Part shown: positions 23,289 to 41,766 of the stretch, one piece after another | Numbering within the stretch: position 1 is the stretch's first letter | Layout of the letters: each line of letters opens with the position of its first letter | DNA from: Candidatus Sysuiplasma jiujiangense | GTDB lineage: Archaea > Thermoplasmatota > Thermoplasmata > Sysuiplasmatales > Sysuiplasmataceae | NCBI GenBank assembly: GCA_019721075.1 | Contig: JAHEAD010000004.1 | Coordinates: 62,001 to 126,000 of the forward strand | Direction: 5' to 3' | Length of the DNA: 64,000 bases | The notes under the pieces: generated by a model | Database searches by the model: none | Told to the model about the DNA's origin: nothing | What the model saw: only the letters and a program-made list of their open reading frames with translations | Position numbers and translations under genes: made by a program

Positions 23289-24971
23289 TCAAGGTGTGTA
23301 CTCGTAAATTGTTGCGAATCCGTTTGTGTACACTTCAACAAAATACTGTGTCTTCAGCATGGCTTCAAAATAGGGCGGTATCGGGTTATCTGGCTGGTTA
23401 GGATAGAAATTTGCCGATGCAAGCATCTCCTTGTCCAGTATTATGTAGCCTACCCTCGCAGGTCCGTAAGGCGTTCTGGAGCTGTTCAGCCGTTCGAGGA
23501 GCTGCTGAATGTCGGCTGAATGAAATACGGGATAGCCGCCAAATTCCCAGGTAGCCTCTCTATTTCCATATCCGAAAATAATCGAGCTTAGCCTGTGATC
23601 GGAGGCAAATGTGGAATTCTTCTGCGTGTTCCATGCGGCCCAGTTGGAAGCATCGAGATCCTGAAACGGGGTTGCGCCGATCTTGGATGGCGATGAAAGC
23701 TGCGTGCTCGCGGCTGTTATGGATGACGTCGAAAGTATGAGAATCACGGCCACTGCAACCGCACCCCAGACCCTTCGCTCAGGCTTCAGCAGCACCTCGA
23801 TAGAGGTTATCGCTGCAAAACCGACAATGAAAGAAAGAATGAGGTAGAGGTACTCGATTACCCTGAGGGGCACCAGGTATGATATCCCTGTCGCCATGCC
23901 AAACACAATTATGACCAGGACAGAGATCAGCAGGAGACCGAGAATCGCACTTTCAGTTTTAAGGGAAGAAAACTGGAGGAAAAGGAAACCGCCCAGTACA
24001 GGAAGAGCAAGGGAAGGTGTGAAGAGCACTGTCAGCGGGTTGGGATAGACCGGTATTGATGGAAAACCAATCACAGCTACTATTGTCGCCGCAATCAGGG
24101 TCCCTGTCACAACAGCTGCTATTTCAAGCCTCATTCTTGCTGAATTTACATGGAAATGTAACTGCTTACCCTGAACAGGCGAGTACCTGCCTGCAAACCA
24201 TATTATGAATGCGGTGGCGAACGGCGCGACGATCGCAGCAGGCAGGGGCATTATCCTGACAATGAAAAGGGTCACGAACTGCGGCGCCATTGTCAGCCAG
24301 TAAGCTAATCCGGCAGCCGATATCAAAACAAAGGAGAATAGCGACTTTTCCAGTTCCCTCGAGGCGCTTCTTCTCAGGAATGAATAATAGAAGAGCGCAA
24401 GCATCAGGAACAGTATGATAAATACAGTCCCGAGATGATACGAAGGCAGCATCGCGAAAGCTATCAGCATGGAAGAGACAAACCTGAAAATGCTTCCCGG
24501 GGAAGTAAGATAGAAGTACAGGAAGAAAATGAGCAGCAGTTCACCGAACGTATCGGACGAAAGTATGGAAGTGTGGCCCGCAGTTACAACAGATGCCGAG
24601 TAGAAGAGCGAAGCCATAACCGCACCGCCCCTGCTACCGGTGAGCGTTCTAGCGAGAGCTGCAACCGGAAATACAAGAAGGGATGAAATGAAGGGCATAG
24701 AAAGTTCGCTTATCGCCGATGAAGAAACGCCTGATGCCGCAGAGAGCGCTCCCAGCAGCTCATAAACACCGGGGAACTCTGTATACGTCTGTCCGAAACC
24801 GGTATATGGAAAGGGAATCCTGCCATTTGCTGCAAAATAGTTGACTATGTAGTAATTTTCACCGGTATCTGGTCCCCACACATTGAAGCTCAGCGGCATT
24901 ATGAGCCTTATCATTAATGAGGCAAAATAAAGCGAAAGTATTGAATAAAAATACCATTTTCCCTCTTTCAT
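23289..24971 (-). CDS. Polytopic membrane protein, possibly GT-C-like
   Basis: Many hydrophobic segments, first-loop WGPD motif, C-terminal soluble domain (W...NT...STF.SD). Confidence 0.6.
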   Translation of the reverse strand: MKEGKWYFYSILSLYFASLMIRLIMPLSFNVWGPDTGENYYIVNYFAANGRIPFPYTGFGQTYTEFPGVYELLGALSAASGVSSSAISELSMPFISSLLVFPVAALARTLTGSRGGAVMASLFYSASVVTAGHTSILSSDTFGELLLIFFLYFYLTSPGSIFRFVSSMLIAFAMLPSYHLGTVFIILFLMLALFYYSFLRRSASRELEKSLFSFVLISAAGLAYWLTMAPQFVTLFIVRIMPLPAAIVAPFATAFIIWFAGRYSPVQGKQLHFHVNSARMRLEIAAVVTGTLIAATIVAVIGFPSIPVYPNPLTVLFTPSLALPVLGGFLFLQFSSLKTESAILGLLLISVLVIIVFGMATGISYLVPLRVIEYLYLILSFIVGFAAITSIEVLLKPERRVWGAVAVAVILILSTSSITAASTQLSSPSKIGATPFQDLDASNWAAWNTQKNSTFASDHRLSSIIFGYGNREATWEFGGYPVFHSADIQQLLERLNSSRTPYGPARVGYIILDKEMLASANFYPNQPDNPIPPYFEAMLKTQYFVEVYTNGFATIYEYTP

Positions 24972-31415: not shown

Positions 31416-33731
31416 ATGAATAATCTGATAATCAGTGAGAAAAACAGTGTTGCCCTCCGCCTGGCAATAGTCCTTTCGGAAGGCAAATTCCAGAGGGAAA
31501 GGTCCCCGGGAATTCCTATTTTCCGTTTTACAAGGAATGGCGATAATTACACAATCGTTGGCTTGAGGGGCCATATTGTCGAATTAGATTATCCCGACAA
31601 ACTTAACAGCTGGGAAACTACAGATCCGAAGGAGCTGATATATGCAACTCCTGAAAAGCGGGTACTTTACAAGAAGATGGTTGATGCCCTGGTATCTGAG
31701 GCGGAAAACGCTGACTGGATAATCGTGGCAACCGATTTCGACAGGGAGGGAGAACTTATCGGTTTGGAAGCTATCGAGCTGATCAGGGGAGAAAATCCGC
31801 CTACAGGAAAGGTCTCAGAGTCTGTTCTAAGTGATCTGAAAATCAGGAGAGCTCGTTTTAGCAGTCTCAGTCGCTCTGAGGTGCTGAAGGCATTTGATGA
31901 GTTGCACCGCCTGGATATAAAACTTGCAAAATCTGCCGAGTGCAGACAGCTGATAGACCTTGCATGGGGGGCCACGCTTACACGCCTGCTTTCCCTTGCT
32001 GCAAACCAGGTTGGAAAGAACTTCCTCTCAGTTGGGCGTGTCCAGAGTCCTACACTGGCACTGATAGCGAGAAGAGAAAGGGAAATAGAAAGTTTCGTGC
32101 CAAAAAGCTATTACACACTTGTCGCAGATTGCAAAAAAGGGACTGAATTCACTGCAGCGCATGAGCAGAACCCGTTTTGGGAAAAAGAAAAAGCAAGCGA
32201 AATATTCTCCAGGATAGGCGGTGAAAAAACCGCGGCCGTTGAGGGATACTCCGCAGAGGAAAAGGAGGAATACGGTCCAACACCGTTCTCAACCACATTG
32301 TTCCTGGTGGACGCCACCAGGCTCGGCTACTCGGGCGCCGAAGCAATGGATATTGCCGAAAGGCTCTATTCAGACGGCCTTATTTCATACCCCCGTACAG
32401 ACAATACCGTCTATCCGCGTTCCCTCTATCTTAAAGGAATACTCGAGAAATTCAGGCAATCCGAATTTGCAGAGGATGCGCTGGCGCTTCTGTCGCAGGA
32501 GAAGATCGTTCCAACAAGAGGCAAGGTCGAGACAACAGACCATCCGCCGATTTATCCTGTGGAAGCTGCAACAAGGAAAAAGCTGTCGAAGAAGGAGTGG
32601 GGAATCTACGAGCTGATTGTAAGAAGATTTATGGCTTCCGTTGCTCCCAAATCTGTAGTGAAGAACAGCAGGGCCAGACTCAATATCGGGGGCGAACTGT
32701 TTCTCGCTGACGGAAAGGAGATGGTTTATGAGGGGTGGAGACACTATTATCCTTATTACAAATTTTACGAAACGAAAATACCTGAACTAAAGACAGGTGA
32801 AAGGGTGGAGGTCAATGGTGTGCATCTCCTTGAGGACAAAACCAGGCCCCCTTCACGTTATAATCAGGGAAATTTGATAAAGGAGATGGAGAAACTCGGT
32901 CTCGGAACGAAGAGCACAAGGCATGAGATAATTCAGAAACTCTACGACAGGAAGTATGTGCAGGGAGAGAGCATAAAGCCGACACTTACCGGCCTTTCCG
33001 TGACGCTTGCTCTTGAGAAAAGGGCGCCTGAGATTTGTGACAGCAAAATGACCGCAAGTCTGGAAGCCGACGTGGATAAAATCGCCGATGGCAGTAAAGA
33101 AATGGAGGAGGTTGTGTCCGAATCCAGGGCCATGCTCGGTACCGTTGTGGATGAGATCAATGCCAACAGGGAGGAAATTGGCAAACTGATCAAGGATGCA
33201 ATACTTGAACAGAAGAAGATCGGAAAATGCAGGGCGTGCGGCGGCGATCTGAGAATTATTGAGAGCGGCAGAAACCGTTTTGCCGGCTGCTCAAATTATC
33301 CCGAGTGTGCGGTGACGTATCCCCTGCCTTCAGGATATCTGATAAAACCGTCGGAAAGCGAATGTGAAGTCTGTTCGCTTCCCAAAATAAAACTGATTTC
33401 ACGCGGAAGCAGGCCGATTGAGGTCTGCATCGATCCTTCCTGCGAGTCCAACAGGCTAACTGGTTCGGTTGGCAAATGTCCTAAATGCGGCAGGGAGCTG
33501 CGCATTGTCCGATCACAGAAAGGGAAGAGATTCATAGGTTGCTCCGGTTATCCGGAATGCAATACGACCTATCCGCTTCCGCAGTCAGGGATTGTATCGT
33601 TTTCCGGCAAGAGTTGCGATGTCTGCGGCGCACCAGTCATCGAGATAAACTATCAGGGGAAGGGGAAGTGGAGCACCTGCGCAAATATGTCATGTGCGTC
33701 AAAGTCACGTCAATCAAGATCACGCAAGTAG
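31416..33731 (+). CDS. topA: DNA topoisomerase I (type IA) with C-terminal zinc ribbons
   Basis: ISEK, GH, ATDFDREGE, SVGRVQSPTL, ISYPRTD (catalytic Tyr), GLGTKSTR, GCS.YPEC repeats. Confidence 0.95.
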   Translation: MNNLIISEKNSVALRLAIVLSEGKFQRERSPGIPIFRFTRNGDNYTIVGLRGHIVELDYPDKLNSWETTDPKELIYATPEKRVLYKKMVDALVSEAENADWIIVATDFDREGELIGLEAIELIRGENPPTGKVSESVLSDLKIRRARFSSLSRSEVLKAFDELHRLDIKLAKSAECRQLIDLAWGATLTRLLSLAANQVGKNFLSVGRVQSPTLALIARREREIESFVPKSYYTLVADCKKGTEFTAAHEQNPFWEKEKASEIFSRIGGEKTAAVEGYSAEEKEEYGPTPFSTTLFLVDATRLGYSGAEAMDIAERLYSDGLISYPRTDNTVYPRSLYLKGILEKFRQSEFAEDALALLSQEKIVPTRGKVETTDHPPIYPVEAATRKKLSKKEWGIYELIVRRFMASVAPKSVVKNSRARLNIGGELFLADGKEMVYEGWRHYYPYYKFYETKIPELKTGERVEVNGVHLLEDKTRPPSRYNQGNLIKEMEKLGLGTKSTRHEIIQKLYDRKYVQGESIKPTLTGLSVTLALEKRAPEICDSKMTASLEADVDKIADGSKEMEEVVSESRAMLGTVVDEINANREEIGKLIKDAILEQKKIGKCRACGGDLRIIESGRNRFAGCSNYPECAVTYPLPSGYLIKPSESECEVCSLPKIKLISRGSRPIEVCIDPSCESNRLTGSVGKCPKCGRELRIVRSQKGKRFIGCSGYPECNTTYPLPQSGIVSFSGKSCDVCGAPVIEINYQGKGKWSTCANMSCASKSRQSRSRK

Positions 33732-33883: not shown

Positions 33884-34687
33884 CTATTTTGGGCGGGGAC
33901 TCAATTCCTGCTGTATCTGCTTTAATTCATAGGTGCTGCTTGATTTCTGCATGAAACCCGCAATATCATTCCTGATGGTATATGGCCGCTTGACGCCGAA
34001 GAAACATTCGCTGGGTATTGCTCTCGGGATGTCGGTTCCCTTGATGCTTACTTTGCCGTTCATACCGTCTCTTCCCATAAGGTTAACGCCAAGTCCGAGG
34101 CCTGCCGATGTTACCGGTATTATGTTCCCGAATGAAAACAGTCTTCCGAGCAGCGACATATGAACATCGATATCAACAAGATTTTCATAACGGACATAGA
34201 CTTCGTTGTAGGTGAGAAATCTCCTTATCATGGCTATCCTGAAATTGGTTATGAAATACTTGTATGCCTTCCTGTAATAATCGGCCAGTACAAAAGCAGC
34301 TATTCCCGCCGCAAGTGTAATTCCTCCAAGGAAATAACCCGGTGCCGTCCTGAAAAATGAAAATGTTTTCAACAGCAGAACTGCCGAGACGATGAGAAGG
34401 ATGAATGCTCCGAACGTGATAAAATGCCTGTGTCTTCTGGTGAGCATAAGTGCCGCCAGTGAAAGAAGAAATGTTACAATTAACCAGAATAATCCGTAGC
34501 TTCCTGCATCTGCCGTACCGAAAATTATTGACAGGTGCGATGCTGCGGGAACCAAAATAGGATGTATGTATTCCCTCCAGTATGGGCTCACCGCCAGCGC
34601 CGTGTATACTATCCCCCATGCTATGAAAATTGCACCAACAAGATATATTCTGATGAATGAAAGCCTGCTCGGGTGCAGCTCCTTCAC
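33884..34687 (-). CDS. Membrane protein with bacterial PH-like (bPH_2) domain
   Basis: Four TM segments, then Y.ITN.RI...R.F......V.Y..L.DI.V..SLLGRLF.FG.I. Confidence 0.7.
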   Translation of the reverse strand: MKELHPSRLSFIRIYLVGAIFIAWGIVYTALAVSPYWREYIHPILVPAASHLSIIFGTADAGSYGLFWLIVTFLLSLAALMLTRRHRHFITFGAFILLIVSAVLLLKTFSFFRTAPGYFLGGITLAAGIAAFVLADYYRKAYKYFITNFRIAMIRRFLTYNEVYVRYENLVDIDVHMSLLGRLFSFGNIIPVTSAGLGLGVNLMGRDGMNGKVSIKGTDIPRAIPSECFFGVKRPYTIRNDIAGFMQKSSSTYELKQIQQELSPRPK

Positions 34688-34834: not shown

Positions 34835-35410
34835 TTACACGCGCCTGCGGTTAAATGGTGCGGTTTCCCTATCCCTGAAATCGCCGGAAATTGACTGCCT
34901 GATTTCCGGTCTTATGCCATAATCAGCTCCTTCTGCAATGCTTTTTTCGGCCGAGATCAGAAGCGCCGCCCTTCTGATCTTCCTTCTGAATTCATCATCA
35001 GTTCTCATGAAGCTCCAGATAACCAGCGTCCTGCCGTATCTGTCCCTGAATAATACGTCACATGTGTGAAAAATCCTGTGCCGCAGTCCTGATTCATTCA
35101 GCTCAAGCGAATAGATTCTGGAAAATGTGATACTGCGCTTCAGAACAATGAGTGTCGACGAAACAACTTTTCCGGTCGACGTGTCCAGAACATTTTTTGT
35201 GCTCTTCCAGAGGGCAACGGGAATAATGCATGTTACTGTTTCACCGGCAAAAATATAGGGTGTCAGGAGGTACGAATGGAAGAGGAATGAGAAGACACTG
35301 ACGGTTTCAGCCGCATAAAGCTGAAGAAGGAACAGGACGCAGAGGAATGCCGATGCGGCCAGGTATGGAAGAGGGGAGGAAGATCCCACAACATTCATTT
35401 TTGTCTTCAT
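34835..35410 (-). CDS. Membrane protein with degenerate bPH-like domain
   Basis: Two N-terminal TM segments; SITFSRIYSLELNES...RIF.TCDV.F pattern; 10 nt after the upstream ORF stop. Confidence 0.55.
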   Translation of the reverse strand: MKTKMNVVGSSSPLPYLAASAFLCVLFLLQLYAAETVSVFSFLFHSYLLTPYIFAGETVTCIIPVALWKSTKNVLDTSTGKVVSSTLIVLKRSITFSRIYSLELNESGLRHRIFHTCDVLFRDRYGRTLVIWSFMRTDDEFRRKIRRAALLISAEKSIAEGADYGIRPEIRQSISGDFRDRETAPFNRRRV

Positions 35411-35420
35411 TTATGTCTCA

Positions 35421-36128
35421 CTACTCCCCGGCACCCGAACCTCCTGAACCCCCCGCCAATTTCCCGGCCATACAGATTCCTGCCAGGATGCCGCAGTTGA
35501 ATGAAAGCATCGCCAGGGAAGCCGGCGAACTGCTCCTGATGTAATTGGAAAGTTCTGCGAGTGTGCTGTCTGCCGTGAATTCGCTGAACGGGTATTCACT
35601 GTCAATCGCCGAAGAAAGTGAAATGGAAAGCATATCCACCTCCGGCCTGAACTCTGCGCTCTCCAGCGCGCTGCGTACCTTTCCGGCTTCCCTTTCCACT
35701 TCAACCAGCTCACTTCTTCCTTTCGGTCTGCCGACCTCCTGCGTGAATGAAAAATTGTATTTTTCCAGCCCAGGGATTTCAAAAGTGCGGATCGGTTTTT
35801 GTCCGAGAGATGAAACCAGGCCTAGTGCCAGCTCAAGTGTTTCGGACTCTCCCTTAAGCCATCCTGACCAGAATGCAATCTCAATCAGCGTCTCCGGCTT
35901 GTCCATTGCGTTGTTCCCCGAAACGACTGCTCCCGGTCCCCTCCTGGAAAGGATGTCTCCCCGGATCTGTCTGGCCCACCATACGTCTTCAAATGAAATG
36001 TCTTCGAGTATGGAAACGGCCTCTGCAACCTCATCCCTTACTTCGCTGCACCACTGCATAAGGACAGATTCGACTCTTGCAAGGCAAAGACTGTCCTCAT
36101 GATTCTGTACTTTTCTTCCGCTTTTCAT
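35421..36128 (-). CDS. Hypothetical protein, coupled to the VirB4-like gene
   Basis: ATG at 36128 overlaps the ATPase TGA (TGATG); no recognisable family. Confidence 0.55.
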   Translation of the reverse strand: MKSGRKVQNHEDSLCLARVESVLMQWCSEVRDEVAEAVSILEDISFEDVWWARQIRGDILSRRGPGAVVSGNNAMDKPETLIEIAFWSGWLKGESETLELALGLVSSLGQKPIRTFEIPGLEKYNFSFTQEVGRPKGRSELVEVEREAGKVRSALESAEFRPEVDMLSISLSSAIDSEYPFSEFTADSTLAELSNYIRSSSPASLAMLSFNCGILAGICMAGKLAGGSGGSGAGE

Positions 36129-37933
36129 CAACCGCAGCCTCCACACATCAGTGCTATTTGTTCGAGTGTCCGGTTCGCCGTCTCGGCGACGAATGATTGA
36201 AATCGAGTCGTTTCGGTGTTCTCAGTACTGCAAAGAATAAACTCAATGTCGCTCGAGTCATGCTCCAGCAAAATCTTTCTTTCGCCGGTGAACAAAATGC
36301 TGTGGCTGTATTTCAGTTCACGCGGAATTACGGTGTTTATGAAAGCATGGTCCTCCTCATCAAGCTCGAGAACTGAAGTCATTCCGCCCTCAATCTTTTC
36401 ATGCCGGAACAGGAACAGCGATGCTGAGTTGTTCAGTATGCTTCCGTTTGAATCTGACACCAGATCCTTCAGATTCTGTGTTATGAGCACGATGCTCAGA
36501 TTGTAATGGCGCGAGTGTCTCATCGCCTTTGACAGATTGGAAAGCAGCATTCTGTCCTCAATGAATTTCCATGCTTCGTCAATGAAAATGCTCTTTCTGC
36601 CCTGGAGTTCCATGCATAAGCCGAAGGTGCAGTCGAGAAGGAATATGGACACAGCGTTCCTGACATCAGGATTCAAATCCGAATAATCTATCGTGCTGAC
36701 ACGAGCAGGATCTCTGAATATCCAGCTGCCTTTTGTCAGAAACTGAAGTTCGCCTGTGAGTGAGCTTTCAATTCTCGCCGCCGCATCCATCCTCCCCTCT
36801 TTTGACATTTCCGCTGCTATCGAACGGAGTACTGCCGAAATCTGTTGGGAGCCGCTGTTTCTCAGCCGCCTTCTGAACGATTCCCTGAACACCGAAGCTG
36901 TTCCAGCATCCGGCATGATACTGCAGAAAAGTTCCTCGATTTCGGGAATCAGATTTGTGTCGAGCGATGGAATCACGGACCCGATGCCTATTCCGTCATT
37001 TTTCACATTTACGTGCCTGCCACCAAGAAAAATGGTCACCCACTCGAATTCCCCCAGCGGATCCAGGATGAAACTGTAATTTCCGGTGTTTTCAGAGTTT
37101 TCCCTGATGAGCATCAGTTTTGCAAAAAAACTCTTGCCGCTGCCGCTCTTTCCGACAATGACACTGTTGAAGTTGGTTCCTGTGAACCTGTCAAAAACAA
37201 CGGGTGAAAGATCAGCCGCATCATGCCCTATGAGGATTCCCTCTTCATGAATGAGCGGTGTCTGGCTGAAAGGTACGAGCGAAGGAAGTGTCTGCTCGGT
37301 CACCGTCACCGATATGTCAAAAGTTGGAAGCACTGAGCGTGAGAAGTGTCTGGAAAGTTTCTCCTGCTCAAATTTTCCATCGTATACCTTGATTCCCGCT
37401 GAATCCAGCTCTGCAGTCAGCTCATTGAGCATCGACGCGGTATCGTCAGCTGTTCTCGAAGAAACGCAAAAAACAATCGCTGCCTCGATAAGGACCGTCC
37501 TGTCTGAGATAATGGCCTGCCTGAGTTCCTGCAGTTCCATGTTAAGCTCTGTGAGATGCGAAAAATGTCTGCCAACCTCTGTCCTGCGAATAATCTCAGA
37601 GCCGCACCGTGTAAGGGCCCTGTCTATTCTTGCAATCGAGTTTTTCTTGCTGAGCGGAAATGTCGACAGAGAAACTGAGAGGTAGGGGAATCGCTGAAGC
37701 AGCCTGCAGATAAACTGTTCCGGTAAATTCGCTGGCAGCTGTTTCACGGCCATAAATGAATAGCATGTGCCGCCAGAGACAATCAGCCGCGTCTTCAGTG
37801 ACCCTGATATCACCGGTCGCCGCCGGGTATGGCTCAGCCGTGCCAGTTCAGCCACCCCATTTTTTTGAAATGCCGCTCCCTGAGCGGGAGTCAACGTACT
37901 CATTTGATGGCATTCCGTCGATCGAAATTTCAT
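36128..37933 (-). CDS. VirB4/TraC/CedB-like FtsK-HerA superfamily ATPase (start uncertain)
   Basis: GILIG......PV.FD.F, N..IVGKSGSGKSF..K (Walker A), ILDP.GE, IFIDEAW (Walker B), RHSRHY...I.LITQ. Confidence 0.85.
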   Translation of the reverse strand: MKFRSTECHQMSTLTPAQGAAFQKNGVAELARLSHTRRRPVISGSLKTRLIVSGGTCYSFMAVKQLPANLPEQFICRLLQRFPYLSVSLSTFPLSKKNSIARIDRALTRCGSEIIRRTEVGRHFSHLTELNMELQELRQAIISDRTVLIEAAIVFCVSSRTADDTASMLNELTAELDSAGIKVYDGKFEQEKLSRHFSRSVLPTFDISVTVTEQTLPSLVPFSQTPLIHEEGILIGHDAADLSPVVFDRFTGTNFNSVIVGKSGSGKSFFAKLMLIRENSENTGNYSFILDPLGEFEWVTIFLGGRHVNVKNDGIGIGSVIPSLDTNLIPEIEELFCSIMPDAGTASVFRESFRRRLRNSGSQQISAVLRSIAAEMSKEGRMDAAARIESSLTGELQFLTKGSWIFRDPARVSTIDYSDLNPDVRNAVSIFLLDCTFGLCMELQGRKSIFIDEAWKFIEDRMLLSNLSKAMRHSRHYNLSIVLITQNLKDLVSDSNGSILNNSASLFLFRHEKIEGGMTSVLELDEEDHAFINTVIPRELKYSHSILFTGERKILLEHDSSDIEFILCSTENTETTRFQSFVAETANRTLEQIALMCGGCG

Positions 37934-38519
37934 CCGAGAGGGCTCTCAGCAGATAAGCCTGGCTTTCGTTCGACAGGACGGCATAATGATTTCGGGACCG
38001 ATAATCGTGGAAACCCAGTTTATTGCATCCGCGGCAGTCTTTCCCGCCCCTTTCCATACTGTGAAGGGAATCCTGCACCGCCAGGGATATGAATTTTGAG
38101 GATGAATTTGCGGTGCAGCACAATTCTATAAAAGATGACAGGAACACTTCCTTCTGCCGGCTGCCGGCCGATGCAAAGTTGATTTCACGGAGTTTGAAGG
38201 ACAGGACACCACAATTCGAATGAGGCTCAGAACTCGAATTAAAGAGAAGGTCATGTTTATAACCGACGCGACGGGCATTTCTGCGGCAATGCATGAAATA
38301 TTTCGTCGCAGAGGGAACGAAATGCCTGATCAGAATGAAGGCTGCGCCTGAGGAGATCAGTATGAGTGCGAATGTGCCGCTGTCGCGGCGGCCCGTCTGT
38401 GCGATCAGCATACCTCCCAGTGCAAAGGCAGTGAAAATTATCATCTCTCTCTGGGAAAATGGCCCGAACGCCGGACTTCCTGAGTTGAGATTCGGCGGTA
38501 CGTAGCACTGTTCAGTCAT
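37848..38519 (-). CDS. PrgI/VirB3-like membrane protein with VirB4 N-terminal-like extension
   Basis: YVPPNL......FGPFS.RE plus two TM helices (PrgI pattern); then INFA......KE..L..F..L. Confidence 0.6.
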   Translation of the reverse strand: MTEQCYVPPNLNSGSPAFGPFSQREMIIFTAFALGGMLIAQTGRRDSGTFALILISSGAAFILIRHFVPSATKYFMHCRRNARRVGYKHDLLFNSSSEPHSNCGVLSFKLREINFASAGSRQKEVFLSSFIELCCTANSSSKFISLAVQDSLHSMERGGKDCRGCNKLGFHDYRSRNHYAVLSNESQAYLLRALSDEISIDGMPSNEYVDSRSGSGISKKWGG

Positions 38520-39663
38520 CGTTCTCCCTTCTTGGCGAATAGATTTTGTGCGGTGCGTTTCTGCTGCCTGTTCTTTCTGCTGCTTTCAGCAGTGAATGCC
38601 GGAAAGGCACAAACCGGGACGGATTCAGCATCTGTCTGAACGACTGGAGCCGTGATGGCATTATATTCAGCTGCTCTCCCACTATCCTTCCGTGTGAAAG
38701 ACCTGCGGAATAGGCTCTCATCGGGTTGCGTGTCAGTCTGCTTGAAAGGCGGGAGGAACCGACAGCGCTTGAGGCGGATCTAATCCTGCCGGTCCTGGAG
38801 AGTGCTGAAGCAACAGGGGAGGATACCAGCCCCGATGCGTACGAAATGGCGCTTATTCCCAGAATTCCTGCCCCCGCTATAACCGTAGATGCAGCCGGAA
38901 GGCCAAACTGCTGCATGATTCTCGAGCCTGCAGGCGATAAAATAAAAGGAATCATCAGTGGGAGAAGATAGGTCCCGCCGATTACAAGCTGGCTGGACTG
39001 CAGCGAATTCATTGTGGTGTATGAAACAGCAATGCCGATCTTGAATGCTACCCCTATGAAGAATGGAAGAAAAGCCATTTCAGCAAACAGCTGTATGATC
39101 TTTTCGGCGAATCCCCTGGTCCAGTCGACAGTATAGCATAGCGCGATCAGAGGCATCAGTGCTGCGGTGAAGAATACTATCAGCGTTCTCATTACGAGAA
39201 CAAGGTAAAGCAGTCCTGCGATTATTGTGAGAAGTATCAGCGTAAGAAGGCTGTACCCGCCCAGTTTTTCAACTACCATGTGTGAATAGGTGGAAAGGCT
39301 GGCATATGGCATTACGGCCGAGGTCATAGCATCGTTGACATCAAGGACCAGCTGGCACATGAAGAGAGTAAACGGCATCAGAATAACTGCCATCACAAAA
39401 AGCGGAATTGATCGCTGGTCCCATCTTGCAAATCTGATGTTCCTCCCTGACATGTATGAGTAGGCAATTGCAATAAGAAAAATCGACGAAAGGGTGTAAG
39501 CAACCAGCAGAACGGACCGCCATGTGTCGTACACACCCTCACTGAACAGCGAGGTGCTCACTGAAAGGGCCGGCACTATGGCCTGGAGGAGCGCTGTCAG
39601 ACTTGCCGTAAACATTCCCTGGAAGAGTGATACAATCCCTGAAAATATGGATGCCAAGTGCAA
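38512..39663 (-). CDS. VirB6/TrbL/CedA-like polytopic membrane protein
   Basis: About 6-7 TM segments, V..T.....MP.......Y..W pattern (RTLIVFFTAALMPLIALCYTVDWT), basic C-terminal tail; lies between pilin and PrgI-like genes. Confidence 0.65.
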   Translation of the reverse strand: MHLASIFSGIVSLFQGMFTASLTALLQAIVPALSVSTSLFSEGVYDTWRSVLLVAYTLSSIFLIAIAYSYMSGRNIRFARWDQRSIPLFVMAVILMPFTLFMCQLVLDVNDAMTSAVMPYASLSTYSHMVVEKLGGYSLLTLILLTIIAGLLYLVLVMRTLIVFFTAALMPLIALCYTVDWTRGFAEKIIQLFAEMAFLPFFIGVAFKIGIAVSYTTMNSLQSSQLVIGGTYLLPLMIPFILSPAGSRIMQQFGLPAASTVIAGAGILGISAISYASGLVSSPVASALSRTGRIRSASSAVGSSRLSSRLTRNPMRAYSAGLSHGRIVGEQLNIMPSRLQSFRQMLNPSRFVPFRHSLLKAAERTGSRNAPHKIYSPRRENDD

Positions 39664-39771
39664 CTACCCCATCATTTTCCTTTCTATGAAGCTGATAATT
39701 TTTGCGACGAAAACCGCAAGGACTATACCGGTGATTGAATAGACACCGCTCTGAAAGGCTGTTATGTACAT
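39664..39771 (-). CDS. 35-aa single-TM micro-protein
   Basis: MYITAFQSGVYSITGIVLAVFVAKIISFIERKMMG; ATG 2 nt after the pilin stop; its TAG abuts the next TTG start. Confidence 0.55.
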   Translation of the reverse strand: MYITAFQSGVYSITGIVLAVFVAKIISFIERKMMG

Positions 39772-39773
39772 TG

Positions 39774-40121
39774 TCACGCGACCAGTGATTGTGCCAGGGC
39801 AACAAGAAACGATGAAGCGAAAAGAAGGAATATGCCGAATGTCACGTCCACGAAATATTTCCTGGCTCTGTATCTCTGCTCGGGATTGCCGTTGCTGAGC
39901 ATCCACATGTAGGCTGTAATCACGTAGCCTATGGCCGCGACAACGGTTCCCACTGCTATTAGCAGATTTCGCACGTTGTCGAGTGTGCTGACAAGTTCCT
40001 GCTGCGGACTTGTGGCTGCCAGTGCCGTTCCGCTGACCGTGAAAATAGTTCCGCCGATCAGGCACACAAAAAACAGTAACATCGCTTTCGTTTGTGTTTT
40101 CGTATGATTTGGTTTGCTCAA
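39774..40121 (-). CDS. VirB2/TrbC-like T4SS pilin (CedA1/TedC-like)
   Basis: Signal-like N-terminus ending ALAA, two hydrophobic helices joined by GNPEQRYRARK; SD GGTGA upstream of TTG. Confidence 0.7.
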   Translation of the reverse strand: MSKPNHTKTQTKAMLLFFVCLIGGTIFTVSGTALAATSPQQELVSTLDNVRNLLIAVGTVVAAIGYVITAYMWMLSNGNPEQRYRARKYFVDVTFGIFLLFASSFLVALAQSLVA

Positions 40122-40149
40122 TCAATCACCAACCGACATCATGATTGAA

Positions 40150-40205
40150 GGGTTATTTAAAAATTATTATATATTTTATATATTTTTAATAATATTCAAT
40201 TATTT
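40150..40205 (-). promoter_or_regulatory. AT-only promoter/operator region upstream of the pilin operon
   Basis: TTATTTAAAAATTATTATATATTTTATATATTTTTAATAATA: tandem TATATATTT x2 and imperfect dyad symmetry. Confidence 0.5.
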
Positions 40206-40661
40206 TCTTCCTGCCTCCATATGCTGAAGCACAAAGATGAGCCCTGATTCGAACCCTCTCTGGAAATCACTTTTTTCCGCGTCAGGCTTCTTCCAGAGGT
40301 TAAGCAGTTCGCTTCTTACCTGGGCGAGAATGTCGTAGTCCCCGAGCTCCTGTTTTGGCCCGCGCAGCACAGAGTTAATCACTTCGCTTATGCTTACCCT
40401 GCACTTCTTTTCCCTTTCTTCCATCTCCCTTCTCATCTTGATGAGCATATTCCATGCGGCCTGATCAAAATCGACCAGCCGCCTGTATTTTGCTTCACCG
40501 CCGATCTCCATTTCCGATTCTGCCCCTGAAGAATAATCACCGGGTGGGTTTGCACGCATGCTGTTTGAATGTCGGCAGCAACTTATGAATTGAACTGTTA
40601 CATGTAACAGTTTAACATTGCCTGATGATATGCGGGATAACTGCCGATATACTAAATACAC
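40200..40661 (-). CDS. Hypothetical protein with ribbon-helix-helix-like segment (true start probably downstream, near 40510-40560)
   Basis: RRLVDFDQAAWNMLIKMR...RVSISEVINSVL fits a strand-helix-helix RHH pattern. Confidence 0.5.
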   Translation of the reverse strand: MYLVYRQLSRISSGNVKLLHVTVQFISCCRHSNSMRANPPGDYSSGAESEMEIGGEAKYRRLVDFDQAAWNMLIKMRREMEEREKKCRVSISEVINSVLRGPKQELGDYDILAQVRSELLNLWKKPDAEKSDFQRGFESGLIFVLQHMEAGRK

Positions 40662-40693
40662 GGGACAGCAATATTGTCGGCAGGCTGTTTGAA

Positions 40694-40885
40694 ATGAAGT
40701 GCAAGGACTGCGAAAAATGGTACGGCGCCGAGGATGATGGTTTTGGTCCCTGCAGCATCAAGAATGCAAGGGGAGATGCGAAATACATCACTTTCGGTAT
40801 GCATCGGTGCGATGAGATTTACAAAGATCTTGATGATGAAGACGACTCTGCCCGGAGAAAATCGGATACCGCGTGTTCCGGGTAG
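40694..40885 (+). CDS. Small Cys-rich putative metal-binding protein
   Basis: MKCKDCEKW...GPC...HRCD, acidic tail. Confidence 0.55.
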   Translation: MKCKDCEKWYGAEDDGFGPCSIKNARGDAKYITFGMHRCDEIYKDLDDEDDSARRKSDTACSG

Positions 40886-40920: not shown

Positions 40921-41766
40921 ATGGACATTTCATTCAGGAGAATGGGAAGCGAAGATATTCCGTTTGTTCTGTCGGTCACGGTGGAGGAGCAGTGGTATCT
41001 GACAGAAAAGGACATTTCCTTCTACACCGGCAACAAAAGCGCGCTTGGTACCGTTGCTGAAATCGAAGGTATTCCGGTCGGGGCAGCAACCGCGGTCATT
41101 TATGGAAGGTCTGCCTGGATAGGGAACGTTATCGTGAAACCAGAAATGAGAAATATCGGACTTGGAAGACGGCTTGTTGACAGTCATATGCTCGCACTGA
41201 GGGAGAATGGAGTGGAGGAATTCATGCTTTACGCATACGATCGCAGTAAATCACTCTATGAACGCATGAATTTCGTCTTTGATGCAGTCTTCTGGGAACT
41301 GGCGCTGCAGCCCGATGCCACGGGCAGAAGGAGTATAAGCAAAAACGTTGCATTCGGGTACAGCGACGAAATAGGCATTTTCGACGGCAGGTATTTTAGA
41401 AACTCCCGGTCGGAGGTGCTAAGATTTGCCTCATCCAGGCCAGGTTCCGGTGCCATGACACACCGTAACAGGAACGGCGAGATTGACGGCTATCTGCTCT
41501 TCAGCCGTGTTGACGACAGTTATGGAACGGAACTGGCGCCATTTATATGCACAGCCGATGCATTGGCTGATATGATGTCATCGATAGGGATTGAAGGCGG
41601 GATATTCCATGTCTATGTGCCGCAGCAGAATCTGCGACTTATTGACGATCTCAGGCTGCGCTATTCAATGGTTCGACGTATTCACAGGGGTCATGTGGGT
41701 GAAGGTAAATTCCTGCCGATAATCAGCAGAGATGTCATTTCGCCGGGTTTCCTCGAAATGGGATAA
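40921..41766 (+). CDS. GNAT N-acetyltransferase, two-domain
   Basis: AWIGNVIVKPEMRNIGLGRRLV (AcCoA motif A), SLYERMNF; second degenerate domain D..YF...R....GY...LAPF. Confidence 0.85.
   Translation: MDISFRRMGSEDIPFVLSVTVEEQWYLTEKDISFYTGNKSALGTVAEIEGIPVGAATAVIYGRSAWIGNVIVKPEMRNIGLGRRLVDSHMLALRENGVEEFMLYAYDRSKSLYERMNFVFDAVFWELALQPDATGRRSISKNVAFGYSDEIGIFDGRYFRNSRSEVLRFASSRPGSGAMTHRNRNGEIDGYLLFSRVDDSYGTELAPFICTADALADMMSSIGIEGGIFHVYVPQQNLRLIDDLRLRYSMVRRIHRGHVGEGKFLPIISRDVISPGFLEMG

What the first reader, a model, noticed from the sequence alone, without database searches (positions are those of the whole stretch)
34835..40661. Minimal, apparently domesticated T4SS (Ced/Ted-like) operon in a euryarchaeal chromosome
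Seen: a co-oriented chain with abutting or overlapping stops and starts. Order: RHH-like gene, AT-rich promoter, VirB2-like pilin (signal, two TMs, GNPEQRYRARK loop), 35-aa TM peptide, VirB6-like membrane protein, PrgI/VirB3-like protein, VirB4-like ATPase with intact Walker A/B, a ~235-aa unknown, and a bPH membrane protein. The window has no relaxase, VirD4 coupling protein, integrase, replication gene or tRNA/att boundary, and the locus sits among housekeeping genes (topA, eno, tyrS). Established: the crenarchaeal Ced (Sulfolobales/Desulfurococcales) and Ted (Thermoproteales) DNA-import systems are domesticated conjugation machineries built from VirB2-, VirB6- and VirB4-like parts. Inference: this may be an independent Thermoplasmata-type DNA uptake/exchange or secretion system with extra PrgI and PH-domain subunits.
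Basis: partly seen in the sequence, partly recalled or inferred. Interest (0 to 1): 0.88.

Follow-up and report, generated by a model that had tools for sequence, protein, structure and literature searches.

The report
Chromosomal conjugation-type pilus machine in Thermoplasmata
An acid-mine archaeon and all its sampled family relatives carry, at one fixed chromosomal site, a stripped-down conjugation-type pilus machine that looks captured for the cell's own use, most plausibly to move DNA between cells.

Summary
The gene chain is real. It lies on the minus strand at 34835-40661. It encodes a TrbC/VirB2 pilin (above Pfam's cut-off), a 35-aa membrane peptide, a VirB6/TrbL-like protein, a PrgI/VirB3-like protein that also carries the first part of the VirB4 N-domain, a VirB4 ATPase, and two lineage-specific proteins. 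A third lineage-specific gene, a bPH membrane protein, lies just outside at 33884-34687.

The whole block sits between topA and GNAT-cysS-eno in the same order in 7 of 7 relatives' loci. It is also found at contig edges in the other two family genomes, so it is in all 10 genomes and 3 genera of one Thermoplasmata family. All genes are under purifying selection (dN/dS 0.08-0.23). The contig has no integrase or tRNA, and no relaxase was found in the genome.

It is not Ced: the CedB model scores 20-35 bits against a cut-off of 700, and the trees separate them. An unlinked FtsK/HerA-type ATPase with weak T4CP/CedD-like signals occurs only in VirB4-positive genomes. Similar pilin-VirB6-VirB4 cassettes are near-universal in several other Thermoplasmata families.

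The "RHH" label, and the "bPH" label for the 191-aa protein, are not verified. A DNA-transfer function is inferred, not shown. This is a new variant of a known kind.

The parts
40200..40556 (-). 118-aa putative regulator. The longest ORF runs to 40661. It is called 'RHH-like' only from a strand-helix-helix pattern read by eye.
   Evidence: The ORF is. Orthologues are found only in the 3 same-genus genomes, at 43-51% identity, and none is found in the 4 sister-genus loci. There were 0 Pfam families in 4 of 4 at E<=10.
40122..40199 (-). AT-rich promoter region of the operon, with a TATA-like ATTTAAATA and an upstream AT-rich near-palindrome.
   Evidence: The sequence is. The motif is conserved in the 4 genomes of the window's genus, and a different conserved upstream motif is found in the sister genus. 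Promoter function is inferred.
39774..40121 (-). VirB2/TrbC-family pilin of 115 aa: a signal peptide, two hydrophobic helices and a basic loop GNPEQRYRARK.
   Evidence: Pfam TrbC 9.9e-10 (39 bits against 27.9) and T4SS_pilin 1.9e-6 (28.3 against 26.6). The mature part is nearly invariant in 8 genomes, with 56 invariant columns. dN/dS is 0.03-0.08.
39664..39771 (-). 35-aa single-pass membrane micro-protein.
   Evidence: A 33-36-aa hydrophobic ORF fills the same VirB2-VirB6 gap in 8 of 8 genomes. tblastn finds 38% identity to the nearest relative.
38512..39663 (-). VirB6/TrbL-like polytopic membrane protein of 383 aa, with about 8 hydrophobic segments and a Ser/Arg-rich tail.
   Evidence: Pfam TrbL hits the same region in 7 of 8 orthologues, E 1.1e-6 to 6.2e-3, one above the cut-off. 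Identity across the family is 42-57%.
37848..38519 (-). 223-aa PrgI/VirB3-like TM hairpin plus the first segment of the VirB4 N-terminal domain, as a split gene.
   Evidence: hhalign against the N-termini of 5 PrgI-VirB4 fusion proteins gives probability 70.7%, E 3.8e-5, colinear 8-147 against 4-152. In the AF2 model only the hairpin at residues 21-70 is confident. The complex with VirB4 scores ipSAE 0.74 against 0.00 for the best control. It is a separate ORF in 8 of 8 genomes.
36128..37933 (-). VirB4-family ATPase. The longest ORF is 601 aa, and relatives align from about residue 45.
   Evidence: Pfam P-loop_TraG 3.5e-14 and AAA_10 3.8e-10. NCBIfam VirB4_plasma 4.6e-31, CD1110 1e-27, CedB only 8.6e-9. 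PDB 4AG5 E 7.6e-25. The Walker motifs are invariant.
35421..36146 (-). 241-aa all-helical protein with a C-terminal hydrophobic helix. It is family-restricted and of no known family.
   Evidence: It overlaps the VirB4 stop by 19 nt. There were 0 significant Pfam or NCBIfam hits. Only 15 hits were found in 1.84 billion representative proteins. AF2 pLDDT is 62.8, all-alpha. No PDB fold match reached E<=0.001. dN/dS is 0.10.
34835..35410 (-). 191-aa membrane protein with an N-terminal TM region and a beta-rich C-terminal domain. A PH-like fold is possible but not shown.
   Evidence: It is conserved in 8 of 8 genomes plus G004. bPH_2 was hit in only 1 of 8 at E 0.0097, and EbsA/DUF6107 hits are weak. 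hhalign against the neighbouring bPH protein finds nothing. dN/dS is 0.14-0.16.
33884..34687 (-). 267-aa membrane protein with four TM segments and a bPH_2 domain. It is outside the given coordinates, after a 147-nt gap.
   Evidence: Pfam bPH_2 E 4e-6, 27.4 bits against 22. It is adjacent to the operon in every locus that reaches it. It was found in 8 of 9 family relatives and in 0 of 51 other genomes of the class with this query. Membership of the machine is inferred from co-distribution only.

Best explanation
This is a vertically inherited, chromosomally fixed ('domesticated') minimal type IV secretion machine of the monoderm/archaeal (MPF-FATA-like) lineage.

**Shown**
- The gene content is a VirB2/TrbC pilin, a micro-protein, VirB6/TrbL, a split PrgI/VirB3-VirB4 pair, and family-specific membrane or helical proteins.
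- The block sits at one site in every genome of the family.
- All genes are under purifying selection.
- There are no mobility genes around it.

**Inferred mechanism**
- The pilin is inserted through its signal peptide.
- The VirB3-like hairpin, VirB4 hexamer and VirB6 platform extract the pilin from the membrane and polymerise it into a hollow conjugation-type pilus.
- The 223-aa protein tethers VirB4 to the membrane by completing its N-domain.
- The 241-aa and 191-aa proteins, and perhaps the bPH protein, replace the missing VirB8-type scaffold in a wall-less or S-layer envelope.
- The pilus and channel most likely carry chromosomal DNA between cells of the species, by import as in Ced/Ted or by exchange. 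The unlinked FtsK/HerA-type ATPase with weak T4CP/CedD-like signals may help.
For: **Identities**
- VirB2 scores above Pfam's cut-off.
- VirB4 is supported by Pfam, NCBIfam and PDB 4AG5.
- VirB6/TrbL is hit in 7 of 8 orthologues.
- The 223-aa protein is colinear with the N-termini of PrgI-VirB4 fusions: hhalign probability 70.7%, E 3.8e-5.
- The predicted complex of the 223-aa protein with VirB4 has ipSAE 0.74 (median of 3 runs). The best of 3 controls scored 0.00. The mark was reached by 116 of 157 solved complexes and 2 of 215 mismatched pairs. The runs agree in at least 75% of contacts, and the partner's pLDDT is at least 64.
- In that model, strand 141-146 of the 223-aa protein pairs with VirB4 residues 86-92.
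- As these are halves of a split gene with solved VirB3-VirB4 relatives, the pass may reflect likeness to known structures.

**Fixation**
- Gene order and flanks are the same in 7 of 7 loci. The GNAT-cysS side is present in 7 of 7. The topA side is present in 6 of 7, because one contig ends inside the operon.
- The locus also lies at contig edges in G004 and G009.
- VirB4 is found in 9 of 9 family relatives.
- The VirB4 tree splits by genus with support 99 and 96.

**Function retained**
- dN/dS is 0.08-0.23 for all 7 genes in the closest pair.
- Pilin identity is 71-87%, higher than topA (61-73%) and cysS (53-66%).

**No mobility**
- No tRNA in the window.
- 7 integrase matches in the genome, none on this contig.
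- No PF03432 relaxase.
- GC content is unremarkable.

**Second ATPase**
- It is present in 15 of 61 genomes, all of them VirB4-positive, and in 0 of the 41 VirB4-negative genomes.
- It is adjacent to VirB4 on two contigs of G050.

**Precedent**
- Ced and Ted are domesticated T4SSs that import DNA. CedD, an unlinked second ATPase, is essential for import. CedB and CedD split a VirB4-like N-domain (PMC9905601 passages; PMC11823120 section 16; PMC11868833 section 9).
Against: - No experiment or expression data bears on the function. DNA transfer, and its direction, is pure analogy.
- The VirB4 is far from CedB: 34.6 bits and 20.5 bits against a cut-off of 700. The family VirB4 HMM gives CedB 33-56 bits, against 110-253 bits for other Thermoplasmata VirB4s. 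So Ced biology may not carry over.
- The second ATPase is only weakly T4CP/CedD-like. Its CedD score is 31-37 bits against 600, and its Pfam hits cover only the P-loop region.
- That ATPase lies in variable contexts, on short contigs, and in several copies or fragments in two relatives. It may belong to mobile elements or to another system.
- Only PF03432 was searched for relaxases. Archaeal conjugative plasmids have no recognisable relaxase anyway (recalled), so its absence is weak evidence.
- The roles of the 241-aa, 191-aa and bPH proteins are guesses.
- The genome is a 55-contig assembly, 97% complete.
Confidence: 0.55

Rival explanations
1. The machine is domesticated but does not move DNA. 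The pilus and channel serve adhesion, biofilm formation, cell-cell contact (for example with DPANN episymbionts in acid mine communities) or protein delivery.
For: - No relaxase and no clear T4CP lie in the locus.
- The closest non-family VirB4s in the protein search include proteins named as from Patescibacteria and Diapherotrites. In Patescibacteria, a chromosomal T4SS is near-universal and its role is open (PMC12102498 passages).
- The organism is found in mine-drainage and tailings metagenomes of 7 studies.
- Inter-species connections between Thermoplasmatales and ARMAN cells are in print (PMC4110969, search listing only).
- The pilin is more conserved than the ATPase. That fits a surface structure under recognition constraints.
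Against: - VirB2-type pili with a VirB4/VirB6 core and no effector, adhesin or chaperone genes are, in the known archaeal cases, DNA importers (PMC9905601).
- No candidate substrate or adhesin gene lies in the operon.
- A second FtsK/HerA-type, weakly T4CP-like ATPase co-occurs with VirB4.
Confidence: 0.25
2. The machine is a DNA exporter. It is a chromosomal conjugation apparatus that, with the unlinked weakly T4CP-like ATPase, pushes chromosomal DNA (Hfr-like) or mobilises integrated elements and plasmids in trans.
For: - The T4CP/CedD-like ATPase tracks VirB4 across families and sits beside VirB4 on two short contigs of G050 that look element-borne.
- The family's VirB4 groups with conjugation-type VirB4s rather than with CedB.
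- The genome holds 7 integrases elsewhere.
Against: - No relaxase or oriT-type function was found (only one relaxase family was searched).
- Fixation of the block without any cargo, in 10 of 10 genomes, is not what serving transient elements predicts.
- In Ced, the VirD4-like CedD is needed for import, so a T4CP-like ATPase does not imply export (PMC11823120 section 16).
Confidence: 0.15
3. The block is a decaying or immobilised remnant of an integrative conjugative element, with no present function.
For: The set is minimal and lacks VirB8, VirB1, VirB11, T4CP and relaxase genes. VirB4 and the accessory proteins are very divergent even within a genus, at 39-49%.
Against: - All genes are intact in 8 of 8 complete loci.
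- dN/dS is 0.08-0.23.
- The position is identical across 3 genera.
- The pilin is near-invariant.
- The Walker motifs are invariant.
- No pseudogenes or integrase lie nearby.
Confidence: 0.04

Closest known systems
Ced system of Sulfolobales/Desulfurococcales (CedA, CedA1, CedA2, CedB, CedD)
   Same: Both are chromosomal, conjugation-derived minimal sets: a VirB2-like pilin, VirB6-like protein and VirB4-like ATPase, with no relaxase. Both have small extra membrane proteins, an unlinked second ATPase, and a VirB4 N-domain divided between two proteins (PMC9905601; PMC11868833 section 9; PMC11823120 section 16).
   Different: - The ATPase is not a CedB: 20-35 bits against a cut-off of 700, and it is separated by long, fully supported branches in the tree.
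- Here the pilin is recognisable by sequence as TrbC/VirB2.
- Here all core genes are in one operon.
- The N-domain split falls between a PrgI-like TM protein and VirB4, not between two ATPases.
- The 241-aa, 191-aa and bPH proteins have no reported Ced counterpart.
- The phylum is different (Thermoplasmatota).
- UV induction and DNA import have not been tested here.
Ted system of Thermoproteales (TedA, TedB, TedC)
   Same: It is a domesticated T4SS with a VirB2-like pilus, VirB6-like protein and VirB4 (PMC9905601 passages). Its TedB is described as a true VirB4 rather than a CedB-type ATPase (PMC11868833 section 9).
   Different: No Ted reference sequence was available through the tools, so the relationship is untested. 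Ted components are reported to share no recognisable sequence similarity with Ced. The accessory genes and the host lineage differ.
MPF-FATA/FA conjugative T4SS of monoderm bacteria and archaeal plasmids (PrgI/PrgJ-type, CD1110/Tn916-type, Mycoplasma ICE VirB4)
   Same: The best curated family hits for the ATPase are VirB4_plasma (107 bits) and conju_CD1110 (97 bits). The module is PrgI-like plus VirB4, with VirB6/TrbL. The monoderm-type set lacks an outer-membrane core.
   Different: - Those systems are carried on plasmids or ICEs with a T4CP, a relaxase, VirB8/PrgL and a hydrolase. None of these is in this locus.
- All scores are far below the equivalog cut-offs of 590 and 325.
- This block is fixed in the chromosome and vertically inherited.
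Chromosomal T4SS of Patescibacteria (PMC12102498)
   Same: It is a VirB4-centred, MPF-FATA-derived system with VirB2-like pilins. It is near-universal and lineage-specific in a group of small-genome organisms, and its function is open.
   Different: It is a bacterial clade. In the quick tree, the metagenomic Patescibacteria/DPANN-like VirB4s form their own fully supported clade beside the family clade, not inside it.
T4SS components noted in Thermoplasmatales genomes (Cuniculiplasma: arCOG05340, VirB4 arCOG04034, arCOG05369, plus a TraG/VirD4-family ATPase elsewhere; PMC5155288 section 12; 'E-plasma' VirB4, PMC10354927)
   Same: The class is the same. The layout is the same: a small membrane protein, a multipass protein and VirB4 in a cluster, with a TraG/VirD4-family ATPase unlinked. 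Cassettes of this kind were seen here in families f10, f13, f18 and f19.
   Different: - Those papers list the genes in a sentence, without any reading as a domesticated machine.
- Their VirB4s are only 21-29% identical to this one and lie at other chromosomal sites.
- The TrbC-class pilin, the 241-aa and 191-aa proteins and the bPH protein of this family were not detected there with the family HMMs.

Membership tests
Type IV secretion system (VirB4-defined, monoderm MPF-FATA-like) | VirB4-family ATPase with intact Walker A/B | tested here: met
   Pfam P-loop_TraG 3.5e-14. NCBIfam VirB4_plasma 4.6e-31 and VirB4_CagE 1.1e-13. PDB 4AG5 E 7.6e-25. The motifs are invariant in 8 of 8. All scores are below the equivalog cut-offs, so it belongs to the superfamily, not to any named equivalog.
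Type IV secretion system (VirB4-defined, monoderm MPF-FATA-like) | VirB2/TrbC-type pilin | tested here: met
   TrbC 39 bits against 27.9, and T4SS_pilin 28.3 against 26.6. No sequence match to solved pilins: of 5 hits at E<=10, the best is 0.074, to designed proteins.
Type IV secretion system (VirB4-defined, monoderm MPF-FATA-like) | VirB6/TrbL polytopic channel protein | tested here: met
   TrbL hits the same region in 7 of 8 orthologues, and one (29.1 bits) is above the cut-off of 25.9. The window copy scores 18.1 bits, E 0.0024.
Type IV secretion system (VirB4-defined, monoderm MPF-FATA-like) | VirB3/PrgI-like small TM partner of VirB4 | tested here: inconclusive
   Pfam PrgI was hit in only 1 of 8, at E 0.062. 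hhalign against PrgI-VirB4 fusions gives probability 70.7%, E 3.8e-5. The AF2 TM hairpin has pLDDT 72-85. The complex scores ipSAE 0.74 against 0.00 for the control. The evidence is supportive but not decisive.
Conjugative element (ICE/plasmid) | Type IV coupling protein (VirD4/TraG) with the T4SS | tested here: inconclusive
   None is in the locus. The PF02534 hit in the genome is a HerA/DUF87 protein. An ATPase of about 840 aa on another contig has weak hits: TrwB_AAD_bind 25.4 bits, TraG-D_C 17-19 bits, CedD 31-37 bits. It co-occurs with VirB4.
Conjugative element (ICE/plasmid) | Relaxase | tested here: not met
   PF03432 gave 0 matches in the genome (97% complete). Other relaxase families were not searched.
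Conjugative element (ICE/plasmid) | Integrase, att or tRNA boundary, and patchy distribution among close relatives | tested here: not met
   There is no tRNA in 64 kb. Of 7 PF00589 matches, none is on contig C34. The block is at the same site in all 10 family genomes.
Ced system | CedB ATPase (NCBIfam NF041017, cut-off 700 bits) | tested here: not met
   It scores 34.6 bits and 20.5 bits. The control Sulfolobus acidocaldarius scores above the cut-off. In the tree, 8 CedB sequences are separated by a 100%-supported long branch.
Ced system | CedA/CedA1/CedA2 membrane proteins, and the CedD ATPase | tested here: inconclusive
   No CedA-type models were searched. The CedD model (NF053655) scores only 31-37 bits against 600 on relatives' unlinked ATPase.
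Ced system | DNA-damage-induced import of chromosomal DNA | not testable with these tools
Ted system | TedA/TedB/TedC homology | not tested
   No Ted reference sequences or models were reachable. One weak CedB-model hit from Thermoproteota (L098) sat on a long, unreliable branch.
bPH_2 (PF03703) membrane proteins | bPH_2 domain above the gathering score | tested here: met
   This holds for the 267-aa neighbour only: 27.4 bits against 22. For the 191-aa operon protein the test was not met: 0 hits in the window copy, 1 of 8 orthologues at 16.6 bits, and hhalign against the neighbour gives probability 0.2%.

The most novel reading that the evidence does not exclude
Conjugation machinery has been captured by the host repeatedly or anciently across the class Thermoplasmata. 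VirB4-centred cassettes are in 125 of 401 sampled genomes. They are near-universal in some families (9/9, 55/59, 42/43, 6/6) and were not found in others (0/46, 0/48, 0/33). These pili could be the unknown route of the intense homologous recombination and mosaic genomes long seen in acid-mine archaeal populations. The family studied here would be a third, independent archaeal domestication and the first outside Thermoproteota. It has a sequence-recognisable TrbC pilin, a split VirB3-VirB4 motor, and new scaffold proteins (the 241-aa and 191-aa proteins and the bPH protein) that adapt a T4SS to a wall-less envelope.
Probability: 0.3. Interest if true: 0.85.

Novelty: new variant of a known kind. 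Interest (0 to 1): 0.66.

Why it matters
[quoted passage not shown] Six searches of the held library found only one-sentence gene listings for Thermoplasmatales (PMC5155288, PMC10354927). A fixed, selected T4SS in a Thermoplasmata family extends such machines beyond hyperthermophilic Thermoproteota. The look-alike cassettes in several other families point the same way.
- **It offers a candidate mechanism for an old observation.** High recombination has been documented in acid-mine Ferroplasma populations (PMC2704941 passages).
- **It is testable.** Cultured Thermoplasmatales carry analogous cassettes.
- **It adds machine parts to study.** These are a pilin recognisable by sequence, a new way of splitting VirB4, and three lineage-specific proteins that may show how a T4SS works without a wall or a VirB8 scaffold.

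Tried and rejected
- **241-aa protein.**
  - No Pfam or NCBIfam family was found in 8 of 8 orthologues.
  - Foldseek against the PDB gave 0 matches at E<=0.001. There were 157 at E<=10, the best at 1.6.
  - The ESM Atlas gave no usable hit.
  - The representative library returned only its own family, 15 proteins.
- **191-aa protein.**
  - hhalign against the bPH neighbour found nothing.
  - The top Atlas rows, at 0.95, are unnamed bacterial clusters and DUF5381. These are a lead only.
- **223-aa protein.**
  - NCBIfam gave nothing relevant in 8 of 8.
  - The AF2 monomer is poor, with pLDDT 49.8, so no fold search was made.
- **Pilin against PDB sequences.** Only chance-level hits were found.
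- **The search for related loci in genome contigs.**
  - Only 32 were confirmed, mostly Firmicutes conjugative VirB4s.
  - The family relatives were not listed.
- **Expression.** No RNA holder was listed among the 24 runs.
Population-level checks for deletion or excision junctions are therefore missing.
- **PF02534 as a T4CP.** This was rejected, because the hit is a HerA/DUF87 protein on contig C2.
- **Decaying-ICE reading.** This was rejected on conservation and dN/dS.
- **Membership of Ced.** This was rejected on the CedB model scores and the tree.

Full report
**What is there.**

On the minus strand of the window, eight ORFs run head to tail from 40661 down to 34835.

| Element | Coordinates | Size |
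|---|---|---|
| First ORF | 40200-40661 | 153 aa (118 aa from the ATG at 40556) |
| AT-rich gap | 40122-40199 | 78 nt |
| VirB2-like | 39774-40121 | 115 aa |
| Small ORF | 39664-39771 | 35 aa |
| VirB6-like | 38512-39663 | 383 aa |
| PrgI-like | 37848-38519 | 223 aa |
| VirB4 | 36128-37933 | 601 aa |
| Unknown | 35421-36146 | 241 aa |
| Membrane protein | 34835-35410 | 191 aa |

- The junctions are gaps of 2, 0 and 10 nt and overlaps of 8, 86 and 19 nt.
- A ninth co-oriented gene of 267 aa (33884-34687) follows after 147 nt.
- The flanks are housekeeping genes. topA lies at 31416-33731. On the other side are GNAT at 40921-41766, cysS, DUF835, eno, a radical-SAM gene and tyrS.
- ARAGORN finds no tRNA in the 64 kb.
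- GC content across the block is 0.45-0.52, like the rest of the window.

**Identities.**

- **Pilin.** The 115-aa protein is a TrbC/VirB2 pilin. It scores above Pfam's curated cut-offs on two models: TrbC 39 bits against 27.9, and T4SS_pilin 28.3 against 26.6.
- **ATPase.** The 601-aa protein is a VirB4-family ATPase.
  - Pfam P-loop_TraG gives 3.5e-14.
  - NCBIfam gives VirB4_plasma 4.6e-31, conju_CD1110 1e-27 and VirB4_CagE 1.1e-13.
  - The family profile hits the solved VirB4-like protein 4AG5 at E 7.6e-25.
  - Walker A (261-268) and DEAW (452-455) are invariant in eight orthologues.
- **VirB6.** The 383-aa protein has about eight hydrophobic segments. It hits TrbL/VirB6 in the same region in 7 of 8 orthologues, at E 1.1e-6 to 6.2e-3, and one hit is above the cut-off.
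- **35-aa ORF.** It is real. A 33-36-aa hydrophobic ORF fills the same gap in 8 of 8 genomes.
- **Unverified labels.**
  - 'RHH-like' has no profile support: 0 families in 4 of 4 orthologues at E<=10.
  - That gene exists only in the window's genus.
  - The 191-aa protein hits bPH_2 in only 1 of 8 orthologues, at E 0.0097.
  - The 191-aa protein is unrelated by hhalign to the 267-aa neighbour.
  - The neighbour is the one with a significant bPH_2 domain, E 4e-6.

**The 223-aa protein is half of a split motor.**

- The window's VirB4 aligns to curated VirB4 models only from model position about 200-315 onward. It therefore lacks the usual N-terminal stretch.
- Metagenomic relatives of about 1000 aa carry PrgI fused to VirB4.
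- A profile of the 223-aa family aligns colinearly with the first 152 residues of five such fusions: hhalign probability 70.7%, E 3.8e-5. Comparisons against single fusion sequences were weaker, at E 0.033 and 0.00098.
- AlphaFold2 folds only the TM hairpin (residues 21-70) with confidence. The overall pLDDT is 49.8.
- Folded together with VirB4, the pair scores ipSAE 0.74 (median of three runs).
  - The best of 3 controls scored 0.00.
  - The mark was reached by 116 of 157 solved complexes and 2 of 215 mismatched pairs.
  - The runs agree in at least 75% of contacts, and the partner's pLDDT is at least 64.
  - Strand 141-146 of the small protein pairs with VirB4 residues 86-92.
- These are halves of a split gene with solved VirB3-VirB4 relatives, so the pass may reflect likeness to known structures.
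- The split is conserved as two ORFs in 8 of 8 genomes.
- It recalls the report that CedB and CedD together make up a VirB4-like N-domain (PMC11868833, section 9 read in full).

**Fixed and inherited, not mobile.**

- The window is part of a 137.7-kb contig of a 2.29-Mb assembly with 55 contigs, 97% complete.
- VirB4 searches found the gene in 19 of 61 relatives' genomes, and in 8 of 9 of the same family. With the family profile it was found in 9 of 9.
- Seven relatives' loci were fetched, and all seven have the same gene order.
  - The GNAT-cysS side is present in 7 of 7.
  - The topA side is present in 6 of 7. The seventh contig ends inside the operon, and its bPH gene is on another contig.
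- In the third genus (G004, 80% complete) the contig begins inside VirB4 and continues through the 241-aa gene, the 191-aa gene, bPH and topA.
- G009 holds a VirB4 fragment at a contig start.
- The block is therefore in all 10 genomes and all 3 genera sampled in this family.
- Identities to the window are shown below.

| Gene | Identity to window |
|---|---|
| Pilin | 71-87% |
| VirB6 | 42-57% |
| VirB4 | 32-49% |
| 241-aa | 31-38% |
| 223-aa | 24-31% (tblastn found 5 of 7) |
| 191-aa | 29-32% (tblastn found 5 of 7) |
| bPH | 52-67% |
| topA | 61-73% |
| cysS | 53-66% |

- The mature pilin has 56 invariant columns.
- Nei-Gojobori dN/dS is 0.08-0.23 for all seven genes in the closest pair (dS 0.23-0.42). 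It is 0.03-0.21 in a second pair.
- The VirB4 tree recovers the two genera with support 99 and 96.
- The genome has 7 tyrosine-recombinase matches, none on this contig.
- It has no PF03432 relaxase.

**Relation to Ced and to conjugative systems.**

- The CedB equivalog model gives 34.6 bits and 20.5 bits against a cut-off of 700. The control Sulfolobus acidocaldarius passes.
- Ten true CedB genes were fetched from 301 sampled Thermoproteota genomes.
- The family's VirB4 HMM gives the following scores.

| Target | Bits |
|---|---|
| CedB | 33-56 |
| Firmicutes VirB4 | 82-113 |
| Nitrososphaeria/Bathyarchaeia VirB4 | 133-150 |
| Other Thermoplasmata VirB4 | 110-253 |

- A quick IQ-TREE was built with 59 rows, 547 columns, LG+G4 and SH-aLRT support only.
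  - The family is a 100%-supported clade on a long stem.
  - It is separated from 8 CedB sequences by a 100%-supported long branch.
  - It lies in an unresolved group (support 90) with the other Thermoplasmata clades and a clade of metagenomic proteins, some of them named as from Patescibacteria or Diapherotrites.
- Limits of the tree:
  - The root on CedB is arbitrary.
  - 22 rows have deviant composition.
  - One row (L098) is long and unreliable.
  - TedB and crenarchaeal plasmid VirB4s were not available.
- The protein library shows the family as 16 clusters at 32% identity or more, then a gap to 27% or less. The only source names are 'DUF87 domain-containing protein [Thermoplasmata archaeon]'.

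**A second ATPase elsewhere.**

- PF02534 hit only a 491-aa HerA/DUF87 protein on contig C2.
- PF12696 weakly hit an ORF that runs off the start of the 5-kb contig C38.
- Full-length orthologues are 835-863 aa and belong to the FtsK/HerA superfamily. Their signals are weak.
  - FtsK_SpoIIIE scores 27.3 bits and TrwB_AAD_bind 25.4 bits. Both are just above their cut-offs and restricted to the P-loop region.
  - CedD scores 31-37 bits against 600, and CD1115 VirD4-like up to 33.5 bits against 250.
- The ATPase is found in 15 of 61 genomes. All 15 are VirB4-positive, and none of the 41 VirB4-negative genomes has it.
- On two short contigs of G050 it lies next to VirB4.
- Its neighbours differ among family members. 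Two relatives hold extra copies or fragments.
- It is therefore a candidate coupling or second motor ATPase, not an established one.
- In Ced, an unlinked VirD4-like CedD is essential for import (PMC11823120, section 16 read in full).

**Beyond this family.**

- In 401 sampled genomes of the class, VirB4-like genes occur in 125.

| Family | With VirB4 / sampled |
|---|---|
| f1 | 9/9 |
| f10 | 55/59 |
| f18 | 42/43 |
| f19 | 6/6 |
| f13 | 4/8 |
| f15 | 1/44 |
| f4 | 0/46 |
| f6 | 0/48 |
| f25 | 0/33 |
| f8 | 0/13 |
| f22 | 0/11 |

- The f10 and class tallies include three genomes flagged unpublished (G399, G513, G603).
- The other families' VirB4s are 21-29% identical to the window's and are not at the topA-cysS site.
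- They do sit in cassettes made of a small TM protein, VirB6, a protein of about 250 aa, and VirB4.
  - Two of the small proteins weakly hit T4SS_pilin, at 1.7e-4 and 0.0081.
  - In f10, a housekeeping flank (HUMPS/RraA) is shared by three loci.
- The family-specific TrbC-class pilin, the 241-aa and 191-aa proteins and the bPH protein were not detected there.
- Thermoplasmatales T4SS genes have been listed in a sentence each in two genome papers (PMC5155288 section 12 passage; PMC10354927 passage).

**Mechanism and odds.**

- Shown: the parts list, the fixation, the selection, and the absence of linked mobility genes.
- Inferred: a VirB3-VirB4/VirB6 platform polymerises the pilin into a hollow pilus. 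Lineage-specific membrane proteins stand in for VirB8-type scaffolding.
- By analogy with the only known host-owned archaeal T4SSs, I put DNA transfer between cells at about 0.55, with the direction open.
- The rivals are a non-DNA contact or secretion role at 0.25, export or mobilisation in trans at 0.15, and a dead remnant at 0.04.

**Literature basis.**

- Read as passages found by term search: PMC9905601, PMC12102498, PMC5155288, PMC10354927, PMC2704941, and PMC12350378 (which has 0 occurrences of VirB, 'type IV secretion' or T4SS).
- Read as abstract plus one full section each: PMC11868833 and PMC11823120.
- Seen in search listings only: PMC4110969 and PMC8975820.
- The statement that this system is not in print rests on searches of the held library only.

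Noticed in passing
G000 contig C38:105-1823 (outside the window); relatives L105:9024-11531, L107:2804-5329, L109:205-2712: An FtsK/HerA-superfamily ATPase of about 840 aa with weak T4CP/CedD-like signals. It is cut by the contig edge in the window's genome. It occurs only in VirB4-positive Thermoplasmata genomes (15 of 61; 0 of 41 VirB4-negative) and lies next to VirB4 on two G050 contigs. Its contexts vary, and two relatives hold extra copies or fragments.
   Followed up: partly
Loci L060-L071 (other Thermoplasmata families): Cassettes made of a small TM (weakly pilin-like) protein, VirB6, a protein of about 250 aa, and VirB4. They are near-universal in families f10, f18 and f19 and were not found in many others. 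In f10 a housekeeping flank is shared. This may be a class-wide set of host-owned T4SSs.
   Followed up: partly
L067:6588-10895 and L066 (G050 contigs C152, C43): A 1435-aa ORF that appears to fuse VirB6-like and VirB4 regions, and an 838-aa VirB4. Both are the best non-family matches to the window's VirB4 (25-29% identity). They lie on short contigs next to the second ATPase, so they may be element-borne relatives.
   Followed up: no
window 40625-40885 (+): A small Cys-rich ORF. It is up to 86 aa, and likely about 63 aa from an internal Met, with CxxC...C...HxC spacing. It is divergent from the operon and lies upstream of the GNAT gene. It may be a zinc-ribbon protein.
   Followed up: no
window 22141-23250 (+) and 23289-24971 (-): An N6/N4 DNA methylase (Pfam 3.5e-21) next to a 560-aa protein with no Pfam family. 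This may be a restriction-modification pair, about 10 kb from the operon.
   Followed up: no
G000 contig C2:9976-11451 (outside the window): A 491-aa HerA/DUF87 ATPase (Pfam 1.5e-32) among housekeeping genes. It is the source of the genome's only PF02534 'VirD4' hit.
   Followed up: partly
G042:C21:4363-5748 and G428:C1:137194-138555 (family f19): The VirB4 matches in two genomes of one genus each contain a single in-frame TAG. This could be recoding, a split gene or an assembly error.
   Followed up: no
window 18898-19896 (-) and 20077-22059 (+): A PhoU protein with an N-terminal MazE/AbrB-type domain, and a sugar/MFS transporter fused to a PhoU-like DUF47 domain.
   Followed up: no
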